This document shows positions 2,413-49,462 of a stretch of DNA of 64,000 nt, piece by piece. The position numbers were made by a program, and so were the translations under genes. The notes beneath the pieces are model-generated. The model was not told the DNA's origin. It did not search any database and saw only the letters and a list, made by a program, of their open reading frames with translations. Source of the DNA: Escherichia coli. Its GTDB lineage: Bacteria > Pseudomonadota > Gammaproteobacteria > Enterobacterales > Enterobacteriaceae. The DNA lies in assembly GCF_001677475.2 (NCBI RefSeq), contig NZ_CP015229.1; one strand, written 5' to 3'. Numbering within the stretch: the first letter of the stretch is position 1; the number at the start of each line of letters is the position of its first letter.

Positions 2413-3918
2413 ATGGAAACCAAAGATCTGATTGTGATAGGTGGCGGCATCAATGGTGCTGGTATCGCGGCAGACGCCGCTGGACGCGGTTTATCCGTGC
2501 TGATGCTGGAGGCGCAGGATCTCGCTTGTGCGACCTCTTCCGCCAGTTCAAAACTCATTCACGGTGGCCTGCGCTACCTTGAGCACTATGAATTCCGCCT
2601 GGTCAGCGAGGCGCTGGCTGAACGTGAAGTGCTACTGAAAATGGCCCCGCATATCGCCTTCCCGATGCGTTTTCGCCTGCCGCATCGTCCGCATCTGCGC
2701 CCGGCGTGGATGATTCGGATTGGTCTGTTTATGTACGATCATCTGGGTAAACGCACCAGCCTGCCGGGATCAACCGGTTTGCGTTTTGGCGCAAATTCAG
2801 TGTTAAAACCGGAAATTAAGCGCGGATTCGAATATTCCGACTGTTGGGTAGACGACGCCCGTCTGGTACTCGCCAACGCCCAGATGGTGGTGCGTAAAGG
2901 CGGTGAAGTGCTTACCCGGACTCGTGCCACTTCTGCTCGCCGCGAAAACGGCCTGTGGATTGTGGAAGCGGAAGATATCGATACCGGCAAAAAATTCACC
3001 TGGCAGGCGCGCGGCCTGGTTAATGCTACCGGCCCGTGGGTGAAACAGTTCTTCGACGACGGGATGCATCTGCCTTCGCCTTATGGCATTCGCCTGATCA
3101 AAGGCAGCCATATTGTGGTGCCGCGTGTGCATACCCAGAAGCAAGCCTACATTCTGCAAAACGAAGATAAACGTATTGTGTTCGTGATCCCGTGGATGGA
3201 CGAGTTTTCCATCATCGGCACCACCGATGTGGAATACAAAGGCGATCCAAAAGCAGTGAAGATTGAAGAGAGTGAAATCAATTACCTGCTGAAAGTGTAT
3301 AACGCGCACTTTAAAAAACAGTTAAGCCGGGACGATATCGTCTGGACCTACTCCGGCGTGCGCCCGCTGTGTGATGATGAGTCCGATTCGCCGCAGGCTA
3401 TCACTCGTGATTACACCCTTGATATCCATGATGAAAACGGCAAAGCCCCGCTGCTGTCGGTATTCGGCGGTAAGCTGACCACCTACCGCAAACTGGCGGA
3501 ACACGCGCTGGAAAAACTGACGCCATATTATCAGGGCATTGGTCCGGCGTGGACGAAAGAGAGCGTGCTGCCGGGCGGTGCCATTGAAGGCGACCGTGAC
3601 GATTACGCCGCGCGTCTGCGCCGCCGTTACCCATTCCTGACCGAATCGCTGGCACGTCATTACGCACGCACTTACGGCAGCAACAGCGAGCTGTTGCTCG
3701 GCAATGCAGGGGCGATAAGCGACCTCGGGGAGGATTTCGGTCATGAGTTCTACGAAGCGGAGCTGAAATACCTGGTGGATCACGAATGGGTCCGCCGCGC
3801 CGACGATGCCCTGTGGCGTCGCACAAAACAAGGAATGTGGCTGAATGCGGAACAACAATCTCATGTGAGTCAGTGGCTGGTGGAGTATACGCAGCAGAAG
3901 TTGTCGCTGGCGTCGTAA
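2413..3918 (+). CDS. glpD: Aerobic glycerol-3-phosphate dehydrogenase GlpD (FAD-dependent)
   Basis: Track ORF 506 aa; conserved start METKDLIVIGGGINGAG (FAD-binding GxGxxG); 501 aa. Confidence 0.95.
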   Translation: METKDLIVIGGGINGAGIAADAAGRGLSVLMLEAQDLACATSSASSKLIHGGLRYLEHYEFRLVSEALAEREVLLKMAPHIAFPMRFRLPHRPHLRPAWMIRIGLFMYDHLGKRTSLPGSTGLRFGANSVLKPEIKRGFEYSDCWVDDARLVLANAQMVVRKGGEVLTRTRATSARRENGLWIVEAEDIDTGKKFTWQARGLVNATGPWVKQFFDDGMHLPSPYGIRLIKGSHIVVPRVHTQKQAYILQNEDKRIVFVIPWMDEFSIIGTTDVEYKGDPKAVKIEESEINYLLKVYNAHFKKQLSRDDIVWTYSGVRPLCDDESDSPQAITRDYTLDIHDENGKAPLLSVFGGKLTTYRKLAEHALEKLTPYYQGIGPAWTKESVLPGGAIEGDRDDYAARLRRRYPFLTESLARHYARTYGSNSELLLGNAGAISDLGEDFGHEFYEAELKYLVDHEWVRRADDALWRRTKQGMWLNAEQQSHVSQWLVEYTQQKLSLAS

Positions 3919-37725: not shown

Positions 37726-38148
37726 AGTCAAAAATCCCCATTCGTGATGTTGTGTTGCTTTGTTTTTATGTGTTAACAAATCAGACTGTTCTTTTTTTAT
37801 ACTGCACTGTTTTTGCCTGTTTGATTAAGGGTTTAGCGCAGTATTTTGTGATAATAGCGATTAAAATCCCTATTTTTCAGTCGATTAAGAACAGATAATA
37901 TTCTGAATTTATTGATAGATAAACAGAAAAAAGCGCCGTTGTCAGCATAAAATAACGGCACAAAGGGCGGAATAATTCACTACCATTCAGGGGATTATGC
38001 TGGGTATTTTTCATTCTCTAATGTTTTAACTTTGTAATTATTGCTGAAAAAAAATTAATCACCTGCCAAAAGAAATAAAAAAGAGAAAGCCTCCGATTAA
38101 ATTATTTCGCTACACTGGTTCCACTTTTGTGATTTACACGGGTTACCC

Positions 38149-38532
38149 ATGAAGCTGACCATCATTCGATTAGAAAAATTTAGCGACCAGGACCGGATTG
38201 ACCTGCAAAAGATCTGGCCGGAGTATTCCCCTTCCTCGTTACAGGTTGACGATAACCACCGTATCTACGCCGCGCGTTTTAACGAGCGCCTGCTCGCTGC
38301 CGTACGGGTAACCTTAAGCGGCACCGAGGGAGCACTGGATTCCCTGCGCGTGCGGGAAGTCACTCGACGTCGCGGTGTGGGGCAATATCTGCTGGAAGAG
38401 GTTTTGCGTAACAATCCTGGCGTTTCATGCTGGTGGATGGCGGATGCAGGCGTGGAAGATCGCGGTGTGATGACGGCGTTTATGCAGGCACTGGGATTTA
38501 CGGCACAGCAGGGCGGCTGGGAGAAGCGTTAA
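38149..38532 (+). CDS. panM: PanD maturation factor PanM/PanZ (GNAT fold)
   Basis: 127-aa ORF; divergent from livK. Confidence 0.85.
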   Translation: MKLTIIRLEKFSDQDRIDLQKIWPEYSPSSLQVDDNHRIYAARFNERLLAAVRVTLSGTEGALDSLRVREVTRRRGVGQYLLEEVLRNNPGVSCWWMADAGVEDRGVMTAFMQALGFTAQQGGWEKR

Positions 38533-38711
38533 TCGCTCTGTGTAAAAAGCAGTTCAATGGATTTGGTTGGGAAAAATAACGCATTTTCGTTTTCCCCGAC
38601 TAAAGGGATAAAGCCCAGCGATTTATAAAACGTATGGGCTTTTTCATTCAGCGCCTCGACAAAAAGACCGTGAATACCTACCGCTAAAGAGGCTGACCAG
38701 ACGACTTTCAT
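38529..38711 (-). pseudogene. C-terminal remnant of a GNAT-family (TacT/AtaT-like) tRNA-acetylating toxin; N-terminal ~100 codons absent
   Basis: 60-aa ORF whose sequence aligns by eye to the C-terminal third of GNAT toxins (e.g. TacT); lies in frame directly after the antitoxin stop. Confidence 0.5.
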
Positions 38712-38732
38712 GGCATGAGCAACAACTAGCGT

Positions 38733-39041
38733 TCAATCACCAGTTATCCCGGAAAACACCTCAAGTTGTTTTGCTGAGCGTTGTAATTTTTCGCCAGGTG
38801 AAGGCGATTTACCCAGTGCATCCATCACTCGCGCCCATGAAGTCTCATTAAGTATTATGCGCTGATGTTGTTCAATAATTTCTAACGCCTGCAGGTGAGC
38901 GCTACTCAATATAAACTGGCTTAAGGACTGTTGGGATATCGCAGCTGCCGTTTCAAACAAACATTTATCATCATCAGTTAAAGACAGCGCAATATGCTGA
39001 TTTTCAACAACAGACATAGTGATTTCCCTTCCACTCATCAA
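38733..39041 (-). CDS. DUF1778-family (TacA/AtaR-like) antitoxin, apparently intact; start may be an internal Met
   Basis: 102-aa ORF with the DUF1778 pattern (ALSLTDDDKCLFETAAAISQQSLSQFILSSA...); canonical position upstream of a GNAT toxin. Confidence 0.55.
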   Translation of the reverse strand: MMSGREITMSVVENQHIALSLTDDDKCLFETAAAISQQSLSQFILSSAHLQALEIIEQHQRIILNETSWARVMDALGKSPSPGEKLQRSAKQLEVFSGITGD

Positions 39042-39204
39042 ATGTACGAAATACTATCGAGTCTCCAGCATAACTCAATTGATCAATCTTTCTACAACCA
39101 TTTCGACAAACATAAAAAACCCGATGGCAGTGCAGCGCATCGGGCATTTTCATTTACGAGATTGCTGGCAAACTAGCTCACTTATTAATACGGGTACGGT
39201 TTTA

Positions 39205-39245
39205 CCCCTCACCCTAACCCTCTCCCCGAAGGGGCGAGGGGACTG
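39205..39245. repeat. GC-rich ~42-bp interspersed palindromic repeat, copy 1 (downstream of livJ)
   Basis: cccctcaccctaaccctctccccgaaggggcgaggggactg; near-identical inverted copy at 49421-49462; possibly a boxC-type element, family not confirmed. Confidence 0.5.
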
Positions 39246-39290
39246 TCCGAGCGCTTTTGAACTTTGTCATCAATCTGATTTATCTGACAA

Positions 39291-40394
39291 TTACTTCGCA
39301 TCGGTCGCCGTGCCGTTGGCGTGCCAGTCAAATACGCCGAACTCAAAGCCTTTCAGATCGCCTTTCTCATCCCACGTCAGCGGCCCCATCACCGTATCAA
39401 CCGAGTTCGCTTTCAGGTATTTGGCGATCTCCGCCGGATCGTCAGACTGATTCAGCCCCGCCTGCAAAGATTGCAGCGCCGCGTAGGTGGTCCAGACGAA
39501 TGCGCCGCTTGGATCCTGTTTTTTCGCTTTGATCGCGTCAACAATCGGTTTGTTCGCCGGAACCTGATCGTAGTTCTTCGGCTTGGTCACCAGCAGTCCT
39601 TCCGCTGACTCGCCCGCGATATTAGACAGCGAGACGTTAGCCACACCTTCCGGCCCCATAAACTGAGTTTTCAGCCCCGCCGCGCGCGCCTGACGCAGGA
39701 TCTGCCCCATTTCCGGGTGATAACCGCCGTAGTAAACGAAGTCGATATTCTCTTTCTTCAGGCGTGCCACCAGCGTCGAGAAATCTTTTTCCCCGGCGGT
39801 GATGCCATCAAAGAACACTACGTTAGCATTGCCTTTCTTCAGGCCGTCCTGCACCGCACGCGCCAGACCTTCGCCGTACTGTTGTTTGTCGTGAACGATA
39901 GCAATACGCTGCGGTTTCACTTTCTCAAGAATATATTTTGCCGCCGTCGGCCCCTGGTCGGAATCCAGGCCGGTGGTGCGCAGGATCAGCTGATAGCCAC
40001 GGGCAGTCAGCTCTGGCGCGGTTGCCGCTGGGGTGATCATTAAAATGCCTTCGTCTTCATAAATGTCAGACGCTGGCTGTGTTGATGAAGAACAGAGGTG
40101 ACCAATGACATATTTAATGCCGTCGTTAACCACTTTGTTCGCCACCGCGACGGCCTGTTTCGGGTCACAGGCATCGTCATATTTTACGATTTGCAGTTTA
40201 TTGCCTTTAATGCCGCCTTTAGCGTTGATATCCGCAACCGCCTGCTCTGCGCCGGTAAACTCCTGATCGCCGTACTGCGCAACCGGACCGGACATTGCGC
40301 CCACGACGGCGACTTTAATATCTTCTGCCAGAGCCATATTGCTGAATGCCAGCGCGATACATCCTGCCAGTAACGCTTTACCCTTTATGTTCAT
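39291..40394 (-). CDS. livJ: Leu/Ile/Val-binding periplasmic protein LivJ
   Basis: Track ORF 386 aa; conserved start [17 protein letters not shown] (signal peptide) gives 367 aa. Confidence 0.95.
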
Positions 40395-49395: not shown

Positions 49396-49423
49396 CCGAT
49401 CGCAACATTGAGCGCGATCGGTC
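49396..49423 (+). terminator. Hairpin immediately downstream of zntA
   Basis: Perfect 9-bp stem accgatcgc/gcgatcggt with about 10-nt loop; no strong U-tract, so terminator function is uncertain. Confidence 0.35.
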
Positions 49424-49462
49424 CCCTCGCTCCTCTGGGGAGAGGGTTAGGGTGAGGGGAAA
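49421..49462. repeat. GC-rich ~42-bp interspersed palindromic repeat, copy 2 (inverted; between zntA and tusA)
   Basis: gtcccctcgctcctctggggagagggttagggtgagggga; reverse complement nearly identical to the copy at 39205-39245. Confidence 0.5.

What the first reader, a model, noticed from the sequence alone, without database searches (positions are those of the whole stretch)
38529..39041. Toxin–antitoxin remnant between panM and livJ: intact DUF1778 antitoxin with a truncated GNAT toxin
A 102-aa ORF with the DUF1778 (TacA/AtaR-like) pattern is followed in the same frame, just after its stop, by only about 60 codons resembling the C-terminus of a GNAT tRNA-acetylating toxin. Full toxins are about 160-175 aa and begin near the antitoxin stop, so about 100 N-terminal codons appear to be missing. 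This looks like an orphaned antitoxin. The panM–livJ spacer here is about 760 bp.
Basis: partly seen in the sequence, partly recalled or inferred. Interest (0 to 1): 0.55.

Follow-up and report, generated by a model that had tools for sequence, protein, structure and literature searches.

The report
Decayed ataRT toxin–antitoxin locus, orphan antitoxin
Between panM and livJ lies a broken copy of the known E. coli AtaR–AtaT toxin–antitoxin pair: the toxin gene has lost its first 111 codons and is dead, and the surviving antitoxin is a rare, fast-evolving relative of AtaR that also seems to have lost its DNA-binding control circuit, so this is ordinary gene decay with one mildly interesting twist.

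Summary
On the minus strand there is a DUF1778/TacA antitoxin gene. Its real start is ATG 39017, giving 94 aa rather than 102. One in-frame TGA later come the last 64 codons of the GNAT toxin AtaT, 100% identical to E. coli O157:H7 AtaT residues 112-175.

This is the known ataRT site. 1,613 of 5,426 complete E. coli genomes carry intact ataR-ataT here. Salmonella, Pluralibacter and Metakosakonia carry intact orthologous pairs between livJ and panM. RefSeq already annotates the remnant as an ataT/N-acetyltransferase pseudogene in the 10 complete E. coli genomes that carry this allele.

It is not a fresh deletion inside canonical ataRT:
- The antitoxin and its upstream region are only 73% and 50% identical to ataR (dS about 0.94). 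The flanks are 95-100% identical, so the locus is a mosaic.
- No toxin-linked relative closer than 66% was found.
- The orphan lineage changed 16 of 44 positions that are invariant in toxin-linked relatives, including the basic N-terminal strand.
- It lost half of its Lys/Arg residues.
- It lacks the conserved palindrome found upstream of the antitoxin gene.

Selection within the lineage is weak (omega about 0.4-0.6, not significantly below 1). Whether the orphan still neutralises AtaT-type toxins is untested.

The parts
38149..38532 (+). panM (aspartate decarboxylase activator). It is the convergent neighbour, and its stop codon overlaps the toxin remnant's stop by 4 nt.
   Evidence: ORF. Annotated as panM in homologous loci. 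98.7% identical to O157.
38529..38723 (-). ataT pseudogene remnant: codons V112-D175 plus the stop. It keeps the catalytic Tyr144. It lacks Gly108 and the QGQGWG acetyl-CoA motif and all mapped tRNA-binding residues except K165. The 60-aa ATG ORF is 38529-38711.
   Evidence: 194/194 nt identical to O157 ataT over 38529-38722. 64/64 aa identical. RefSeq pseudogene, 'missing N-terminus'. Residue roles from PMC7595197.
38724..38759 (-). Junction or filler sequence of unassigned origin. It encodes the antitoxin's novel tail VFSGITGD (38736-38759), the TGA stop (38733-38735) and 9 nt, ACGCTAGTT (38724-38732). Those 9 nt match 7 of the 9 ataT bases at codons 110-112, with an extra GTT.
   Evidence: No significant similarity to the missing part of ataRT (P=0.59 and 0.40 against shuffles). 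Junction sequences compared. Nearly invariant in all carriers.
38760..39017 (-). Core of the orphan antitoxin gene: codons 1-86, homologous to AtaR 1-86 (N-terminal DNA-binding part plus C-terminal neutralisation domain 44-86). The whole CDS is 38733-39017 (94 aa plus stop).
   Evidence: Pfam PF08681 at E=1.4e-17. AtaR PDB chains at E=4.6e-31. 65% aa and 72.9% nt identity to AtaR/ataR. The exact protein is in NCBI as an E. coli DUF1778 protein.
39018..39077 (-). Upstream region of the orphan antitoxin. It holds a Shine-Dalgarno-like GGAAGGGA (39025-39032) and a single surviving half-site, ATGTACG (39042-39048), of the palindrome conserved in toxin-linked relatives. It is 50% identical to the canonical ataRT upstream region but almost invariant among orphan carriers.
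   Evidence: Identity. No inverted repeat here, against 8-14-nt arms in E. coli, Salmonella, Pluralibacter and Metakosakonia. 2 variable sites in the 85 nt upstream of the ATG across the 15 loci, both within these 60 nt, against 10 of about 58 synonymous sites, Fisher p=0.015.
39114..39144 (-). Hairpin plus T-run downstream of livJ (likely the livJ terminator). It separates livJ from the antitoxin gene and is shared with canonical ataRT loci.
   Evidence: Read from the sequence. The homologous CCCGATG/CATCGGG inverted repeat occurs in O157. The region is 95% identical to O157. The consensus terminator scan did not call it because its loop is 11 nt.
39291..40394 (-). livJ, the upstream neighbour on the same strand.
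   Evidence: ORFs. Annotation of homologous loci. Translation checked.

Best explanation
This is a degraded allele of the chromosomal ataRT-type type II toxin-antitoxin locus, which pairs a GNAT aminoacyl-tRNA acetyltransferase toxin with a DUF1778 antitoxin. That locus occupies the livJ-panM spacer in about 30% of E. coli and, as an intact pair, in several other Enterobacteriaceae.

Shown. The toxin gene lacks codons 1-111. It therefore lacks the acetyl-CoA loop (Gly108) and almost all mapped tRNA-binding residues, so it cannot be a toxin. Codons 112-175 remain and are identical to canonical E. coli ataT. The antitoxin gene is complete over the 86 residues shared with AtaR. It belongs to a separate lineage (65% aa identity, dS about 0.94) that was only ever seen next to this same truncated toxin. 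The locus is a mosaic: a divergent block at 38724-39077 sits inside E. coli-like flanks.

Inferred. The toxin was lost once, long ago, in a diverged sister allele of ataRT. Homologous recombination with ataRT-bearing strains has since homogenised the flanks up to the junction. Freed from its toxin, the antitoxin has evolved under relaxed constraint (omega about 0.5, against about 0.05 in toxin-linked orthologues). Its self-repression circuit has come apart: four of the five basic residues of the N-terminal strand are replaced, and the conserved upstream palindrome is reduced to one half-site.

The most likely present state is a solitary, probably still expressed but dispensable antitoxin relic. 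It performs no toxin-antitoxin addiction or growth-arrest function in this strain.
For: Identity of the parts.

The site is the ataRT locus. Intact ataR-ataT lies between panM and livJ in O157:H7 and ST131. 1,613 of 5,426 complete E. coli genomes carry ataR there and 10 carry this allele. K-12 has a 187-bp spacer instead, with no ataRT. Intact 89-aa plus 172-aa pairs occupy the same livJ-panM position in Salmonella, Pluralibacter and Metakosakonia.

The toxin is dead. G108D abolishes AtaT toxicity, and residues 27-95 are needed for tRNA recognition (PMC7595197). All of these lie in the deleted part.

Mosaic, window against O157: remnant 100%, panM 98.7%, terminator region 94.9%, antitoxin 72.9%, upstream 50%, junction 57%. 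The remnant carries the same O157-type and ST131-type polymorphisms as intact ataT alleles.

Old split and fast protein evolution. dS is 0.94 and dN is 0.227 against AtaR. Between genera, AtaR shows dN 0.07-0.10. Three-taxon branch lengths are about 0.22 for the orphan and about 0.007 for AtaR. 16 of 44 invariant positions are changed, against 0-4 in any toxin-linked sequence. K+R is 7 against 13-15. The net charge of residues 1-13 is -1 against +3.

Palindrome. ATGTACGGT-N5-ACCGTACAT is conserved across four genera despite saturated synonymous sites. It is absent here.

Single event. The junction is identical in 15 loci.

No toxin-linked close relative was found in 5.8 billion protein clusters, in about 100,000 species-representative genomes or in 72,556 plasmids.
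Against: - The antitoxin reading frame is open in nearly all of the 34 protein variants.
- Within the lineage omega is about 0.4-0.6 rather than 1.
- The 60 nt upstream are more conserved than synonymous sites (p=0.015).
- 14 of 19 invariant positions of the toxin-binding C-terminal domain are kept.
All four points hint at some retained function.

Transcription and translation were not tested. The promoter scan was uninformative for both the orphan and the canonical allele. That the palindrome is the AtaR operator is inferred from its conservation and position, not from a binding experiment I could read. The order of events (loss in a diverged allele followed by flank conversion, or a chimeric recombination) is not resolved.
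Confidence: 0.75

Rival explanations
1. The orphan antitoxin is kept by selection as an antidote acting in trans. It would neutralise AtaT-type toxins arriving by recombination at this locus or on plasmids (anti-addiction or immunity). Losing self-repression would make it constitutively expressed.
For: - The ORF is open in almost all variants, across hundreds of contigs.
- omega is about 0.4-0.6, an estimate biased upward because haplotypes were chosen by protein difference.
- The upstream region is conserved.
- The C-terminal neutralisation domain (AtaR 44-88, crystallised alone with AtaT in 6GTQ) is 70% identical to AtaR and keeps 14 of 19 invariant positions.
- The flanks show repeated recombination with ataRT carriers.
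- Non-cognate neutralisation within this family has been seen once: KacA3 against KacT2 (PMC9431474).
Against: - GNAT/RHH pairs are usually insulated from one another (TacAT1-3; KacAT1, 3 and 4).
- omega is not significantly below 1 (P=0.07-0.14 at realistic transition bias).
- Truncated alleles of 62, 79 and 83 aa occur in at least 32 contigs.
- Family-invariant C-terminal residues R52, P71 and R84 are changed.
- The allele is rare: 10 of 5,426 complete genomes.
- No neutralisation test was possible.
Confidence: 0.2
2. A recent, simple internal deletion of about 330 bp inside an ordinary E. coli ataR-ataT operon, which is how the first reader's text reads.
For: The toxin remnant is 100% identical to O157 ataT, and gene order and site are the same.
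Against: - The antitoxin is 72.9% identical to ataR, with dS 0.94, and its upstream region is 50% identical.
- No intermediates exist among 1,623 E. coli genomes with a match: 10 lie at 95-99% and 1,613 at 60-80%.
- 36 nt at the junction are unmatched.
- Carriers differ from each other by dS up to 0.14 while sharing the same junction.
Confidence: 0.03
3. The antitoxin has been re-tooled as a transcription factor with a new DNA specificity. The changed N-terminal strand residues H8, A/V10 and S/C12 would read a new site and regulate other genes.
For: All five changed residues of the N-terminal strand are fixed or nearly fixed across the lineage. The upstream region is conserved within the lineage.
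Against: - Four basic residues in residues 5-12 are lost, giving a net charge of -1.
- No inverted repeat is left upstream.
- Positions 10 and 12 are themselves polymorphic, A/V and S/C.
- By published accounts AtaR alone binds DNA weakly without AtaT (PMC8138530).
Confidence: 0.05

Closest known systems
AtaR-AtaT of enterohaemorrhagic E. coli O157:H7 (GNAT toxin that acetylates aminoacyl-tRNAs, with a DUF1778 antitoxin; PDB 6AJM, 6GTO-6GTS)
   Same: Same chromosomal site between livJ and panM, same gene order and strand. The toxin remnant is identical to AtaT 112-175. The antitoxin aligns without gaps to AtaR 1-86.
   Different: The toxin lacks residues 1-111. The antitoxin is only 65% identical to AtaR, has an 8-residue replacement tail and has lost 7 of 14 Lys/Arg. 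The upstream palindrome is missing. RefSeq names it 'DUF1778 domain-containing protein' or 'TacA family antitoxin', not AtaR.
Syntenic AtaRT orthologues in Salmonella enterica (serovar Isangi and others), Pluralibacter and Metakosakonia
   Same: Same livJ-[antitoxin-toxin]-panM-livK arrangement and the same upstream palindrome.
   Different: Those pairs are intact (89 aa plus 172 aa) and strongly constrained (omega 0.04-0.10). The window's antitoxin is 55-59% identical to them and sits on a long branch.
KacA-KacT (Klebsiella pneumoniae) and TacA-TacT (Salmonella): the wider GNAT/RHH type II toxin-antitoxin family
   Same: Same Pfam family for the antitoxin. KacA (PDB 5ZGN) matches at E=8.5e-25 and KacT matches the remnant at E=6e-25.
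   Different: More distant relatives at other loci or on plasmids. Plasmid homologues are at most 52% identical.
Orphan antitoxins of degraded chromosomal toxin-antitoxin loci in E. coli generally (surveyed in PMC10790755), and the anti-addiction idea (chromosomal ccd of Erwinia against F-plasmid ccd, as cited in PMC9431474)
   Same: Toxin-first decay that leaves a solitary antitoxin. The same proposed roles apply: anti-addiction or regulator.
   Different: That survey does not mention AtaR, AtaT or DUF1778. No function has been demonstrated for this orphan.

Membership tests
DUF1778 / TacA1 antitoxin family (Pfam PF08681) | Significant match to the family profile over most of its length | tested here: met
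   E=1.4e-17, model positions 3-78 of 80. The precomputed PF08681 hit is also on record for the identical database protein.
AtaR (cognate antitoxin of AtaT) | Close sequence identity to AtaR, of the kind seen among AtaR orthologues (76-98% even between genera) | tested here: not met
   65% identity to O157 AtaR and 51-59% to orthologues. AtaR is 76-86% identical to those same orthologues. RefSeq does not name it AtaR.
AtaR (cognate antitoxin of AtaT) | Encoded immediately upstream of, and co-transcribed with, a full-length GNAT toxin | tested here: not met
   Only codons 112-175 of the toxin follow it. This holds in all 15 loci examined.
AtaR (cognate antitoxin of AtaT) | Conserved basic N-terminal strand (KKQRIDLRL) and a palindrome upstream of the gene for self-repression | tested here: not met
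   The strand reads ENQHIALSL, with net charge -1 against +3. No inverted repeat is present and one half-site is left. That these features mediate repression is inferred from conservation and from the published AtaR model (PMC8138530).
AtaR (cognate antitoxin of AtaT) | Binds and neutralises AtaT through its C-terminal domain | not testable with these tools
   The C-terminal domain 44-86 is 70% identical to AtaR. A co-expression or binding assay is needed.
AtaT / GNAT aminoacyl-tRNA acetyltransferase toxins | Complete GNAT fold with the acetyl-CoA-binding loop (QGQGWG, Gly108) and the catalytic Tyr144 | tested here: not met
   Only residues 112-175 are encoded. Tyr144 is present, but Gly108 and the loop are absent. 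Pfam GNAT profiles are not significant (E=0.21).
AtaT / GNAT aminoacyl-tRNA acetyltransferase toxins | Sequence derived from ataT (homology, as opposed to function) | tested here: met
   64/64 residues and 194/194 nt identical to O157 ataT.
Functional type II toxin-antitoxin module | An active toxin plus a neutralising, self-repressing antitoxin in one operon | tested here: not met
   The toxin is truncated and the operator-like palindrome is absent.

The most novel reading that the evidence does not exclude
The orphan is not junk. It would be a domesticated 'pure antidote' allele of the ataRT locus: an anciently diverged AtaR-like protein that shed its toxin, its DNA-binding head and its operator, is expressed constitutively, and still neutralises AtaT. 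It would then compete as an allele with intact ataRT at the same recombination-active site. Its carriers could lose or resist the addictive allele without being killed.
Probability: 0.12. Interest if true: 0.5.

Novelty: new member of a known kind. Interest (0 to 1): 0.25.

Why it matters
The main value is as a clean, datable example of how a chromosomal toxin-antitoxin module decays. The toxin goes first. The antitoxin then evolves roughly ten times less constrained than its toxin-linked orthologues and loses its operator and basic DNA-reading residues. Recombination overwrites the flanks.

It also gives a natural reagent for the specificity question in GNAT/RHH systems: does a 65%-identical AtaR relative without self-repression still neutralise AtaT?

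For annotation, the protein should not be called AtaR, and strains carrying it should not be counted as having an ataRT system.

It does not open a new kind of biology. Orphan antitoxins are common in E. coli, and RefSeq already marks the pseudogene.

Tried and rejected
- Pfam on the 67-aa remnant gave only Acetyltransf_7 at E=0.21. Homology had to be shown by direct comparison with AtaT.
- NCBIfam holds no AtaR or AtaT model, so it gave no membership test.
- The sigma-70 and terminator consensus scan found nothing on the minus strand here. It also found nothing in the canonical O157 upstream region, so it is uninformative.
- Rfam gave nothing above threshold in 38000-39400.
- Search for an intact sister module:
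  - E. coli complete genomes, near and distant modes.
  - Plasmids by tblastn, at most 52% identity.
  - GTDB species representatives by peptide patterns, which returned only canonical AtaR and a Superficieibacter fragment.
  - Two searches of 5.8 billion protein clusters.
  - None found one. The pattern scans need exact 8-mers or shared words, so moderately diverged relatives in unsampled taxa could be missed.
- MAFFT aligned part of the junction (31 nt within 38724-38759) to the LGRLAIDRS region of ataT at 58% identity. Shuffle tests show this is not above chance (P=0.59 and 0.40), so I rejected the 'two deletions' reading. Only ACGCTAGTT against ACACTGGTT, next to the breakpoint, is suggestive (my rough estimate is p about 0.01).
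- Enrichment of changes in the N-terminal strand relative to the rest of the protein is not significant (Fisher p=0.27).
- I suspected that the window's divergent livJ (about 95% identical to K-12 and O157) was co-imported with the antitoxin. I dropped this because livJ is generally very polymorphic among the strains compared.

Full report
**What is there.** All features below are on the minus strand between panM (38149-38532, plus strand) and livJ (39291-40394).
- The ORF 38733-39041 is the maximal TTG frame, 102 aa.
- Alignment with AtaR, the RefSeq annotation of homologous loci and 34 database variants place the true start at ATG 39017, giving 94 aa.
- The protein matches Pfam TacA1/DUF1778 at E=1.4e-17. 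It matches the AtaR chains of PDB 6AJM, 6GTO and 6GTS at E=4.6e-31 over residues 1-86.
- One in-frame TGA (38733-38735) follows. The frame then continues as TLVVAHAMKVVW...TQSD*.
- From V112 to D175 this is 64/64 identical to AtaT of E. coli O157:H7. The DNA is 194/194 identical.
- Pfam GNAT profiles alone do not reach significance on this fragment (E=0.21).
- The spacer is 758 bp.

**It is the known ataRT site.**
- In O157:H7 and ST131 the same spacer holds intact ataR (88 aa) and ataT (175 aa).
- K-12 has a 187-bp spacer with no ataRT genes.
- Of 5,426 complete E. coli genomes, 1,613 carry ataR at this site and 10 carry the window's allele.
- In those 10, RefSeq already annotates an 'ataT' or 'N-acetyltransferase' pseudogene, 'incomplete; missing N-terminus'. 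Next to it is a 'DUF1778 domain-containing protein' or 'TacA family antitoxin'.
- The window's locus is base-for-base identical to one in draft assembly GCA_027552025.1.
- Intact orthologous pairs (89 aa plus 172 aa) lie between livJ and panM in Salmonella, Pluralibacter and Metakosakonia. The module is therefore an old resident of this site.

**The toxin is dead.** The deletion removes residues 1-111. According to PMC7595197, G108D abolishes toxicity by blocking acetyl-CoA binding. L27, F30, H34/R37/R40, R71, S76-K82, Y85 and R95 are needed for tRNA recognition or toxicity. All of these are gone. Only the catalytic Y144 remains. The 60-aa ATG ORF (38529-38711) has no obvious ribosome-binding site, judged by reading the sequence.

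**It is not a simple deletion in canonical ataRT.** Segment-wise identity of the window to O157 is:

| Segment | Identity to O157 |
|---|---|
| panM | 98.7% |
| Toxin remnant | 100% |
| Junction, 37 nt | 57% |
| Antitoxin codons 1-86 | 72.9% |
| 60 nt upstream of the antitoxin | 50% |
| livJ terminator region | 94.9% |

- The divergent block (about 38724-39077) therefore sits inside E. coli-like flanks.
- Between the orphan and ataR, dS is 0.94 and dN is 0.227.
- E. coli genomes show no intermediates: 10 lie at 95-99% and 1,613 at 60-80%.
- In other carriers the remnant carries the same O157-type or ST131-type polymorphisms as intact ataT alleles. I read this as repeated homologous recombination of the flank with ataRT-bearing strains, reaching as far as the junction.
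- The 36 nt between AtaR-homologous codon 86 and the first ataT-identical base (38724-38759) match nothing in the missing part of ataRT above chance (P=0.59 and 0.40).
- Only the 9 nt next to the breakpoint (ACGCTAGTT against ACACTGGTT, codons T110-V112, plus an extra GTT) look like a trace of a diverged toxin or a microhomology join.

**The antitoxin lineage exists only as an orphan, as far as can be seen.**
- Two searches of 5.8 billion protein clusters found two clusters (34 variants, 90-100% identical, nearly all 94 aa). The next best hit was AtaR at 66% or less.
- Plasmid homologues are at most 52% identical.
- A pattern scan of about 100,000 species-representative genomes found only canonical AtaR and a fragment in Superficieibacter.
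- All 15 loci fetched share exactly the same junction. They include complete E. coli genomes, drafts, metagenome contigs and Escherichia sp. E4208. The truncation therefore happened once.
- Carriers differ from each other by dS up to 0.14, so the orphan state is not recent.

**The antitoxin has evolved quickly and in a telling way.**
- Toxin-linked orthologues from seven genera and a plasmid are 72-98% identical to each other. The orphan is 64-66% identical to AtaR and 51-59% to the rest.
- With Salmonella as outgroup, dN on the orphan branch is about 0.22, against about 0.007 on the AtaR branch (from the distances). Toxin-linked antitoxins show omega 0.04-0.10 between genera.
- The orphan lineage has changed 16 of the 44 positions that are invariant in the nine toxin-linked sequences. 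Any single toxin-linked sequence changes 0-4.
- Five of the changes hit the N-terminal strand: KKQRIDLRL became ENQHIALSL, with A/V at position 10 and S/C at 12.
- Lys plus Arg fell from 13-15 to 7. The net charge of residues 1-13 went from +3 to -1.
- A palindrome, ATGTACGGT-N5-ACCGTACAT, lies upstream of the antitoxin gene in E. coli, Salmonella, Pluralibacter and Metakosakonia, although synonymous sites between these genera are saturated. In the orphan allele only one half-site (ATGTACG, 39042-39048) is left and no inverted repeat is detectable.
- From the published model, the AtaR-AtaT complex binds the operator tightly and AtaR alone binds it weakly (PMC8138530). I infer that the self-repression circuit of this allele is dismantled. 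This is an inference from conservation, not a binding result.

**Is the orphan still doing something?** The evidence is mixed.

For retention:
- The frame is open in almost all variants.
- Among eight DNA haplotypes the core has 10 synonymous and 14 non-synonymous variable sites. That gives omega about 0.4-0.6, biased upward because I picked haplotypes by protein difference.
- The 60 nt upstream have 2 variable sites, against 10 at about 58 synonymous sites (Fisher p=0.015).
- The C-terminal neutralisation domain keeps 14 of 19 invariant positions and is 70% identical to AtaR.

Against retention:
- omega is not significantly below 1 at realistic transition bias (P=0.07-0.14).
- Truncated alleles of 62, 79 and 83 aa occur in at least 32 contigs.
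- The allele is rare.
- GNAT/RHH pairs are usually specific, with one known exception, KacA3 against KacT2.

I put about 0.2 on a retained antidote role in trans. Most of the weight goes on a slowly decaying, probably still expressed relic.

**Comparison with what is known, and verdict.**
- By homology the remnant is ataT. The antitoxin is a DUF1778/TacA-family protein whose nearest relative is AtaR.
- It fails the tests for being AtaR itself: identity level, linkage to a full toxin, conserved basic strand and upstream palindrome.
- The locus fails the test for a functional type II module.
- Toxin-first decay and orphan antitoxins are well documented in E. coli (PMC10790755). That survey does not mention AtaR, AtaT or DUF1778, and no paper in the searched library combined 'ataRT' with 'livJ'.
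- I rate it a new member of a known kind, of low to moderate interest (0.25).

Noticed in passing
window 39153-39280 (core 39208-39242); second copy at 49422-49456 (minus strand): A G+C-rich palindromic dispersed repeat of about 126 bp (…CTCACCCTAACCCTCTCCCCGAAGGGGCGAGGGGA…) is inserted between the livJ stop and the livJ terminator. It is present in most orphan-allele carriers but absent from O157, ST131 and strain VCSW5. A second copy with 3 mismatches lies about 10 kb away, and related copies occur elsewhere in E. coli genomes (hit H37). It resembles what I recall as E. coli 'box C' intergenic repeats, but that is from memory only. Rfam gave nothing significant.
   Followed up: partly
L014-L017 (E. 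coli drafts, e.g. GCA_014911505.1), locus coordinates 1980-2360: In the haplotype carrying antitoxin variant P0003, panM is cut to its last 55 bp or so and fused to a second copy of the 3' end of a livJ/livK-type gene. A TRAP-transporter DctM gene follows instead of panM-livK. This is a rearrangement or insertion right next to the remnant.
   Followed up: no
L011 (Superficieibacter sp. 1612_C1), locus coordinates 2929-3210: Downstream of livJ in this other genus there is a different wreck of the same module. An ORF holds only the C-terminal half of an AtaR-like antitoxin (55% identical to residues 43-86) and runs on into unrelated sequence. A P-loop kinase-like gene stands where the toxin and panM would be. 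Decay at this site therefore looks recurrent.
   Followed up: no
window 39291-40394 (livJ): The window's livJ is only 94.6-95.7% identical to livJ of K-12, O157, ST131 and the other orphan carriers. Those alleles themselves differ by 1-4%. About 45% of the window-specific differences (21 of 47) match the paralogue livK in the same window, which hints at livK-to-livJ gene conversion. The whole neighbourhood looks recombination-rich.
   Followed up: partly
L003 (K-12 MG1655), locus coordinates 1662-1761: In the 187-bp K-12 panM-livJ spacer RefSeq annotates a 100-bp 'hypothetical protein' pseudogene (frameshifted, missing both ends). I did not check whether it is a last trace of ataRT or just the repeat-like sequences (from memory, REP elements) seen in the alignment.
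   Followed up: no
window 38733-38735: The antitoxin and the toxin remnant are in the same reading frame, separated by a single TGA that is conserved in all carriers. Read-through would give a 159-aa antitoxin / toxin C-terminus fusion. There is no evidence that this happens.
   Followed up: no
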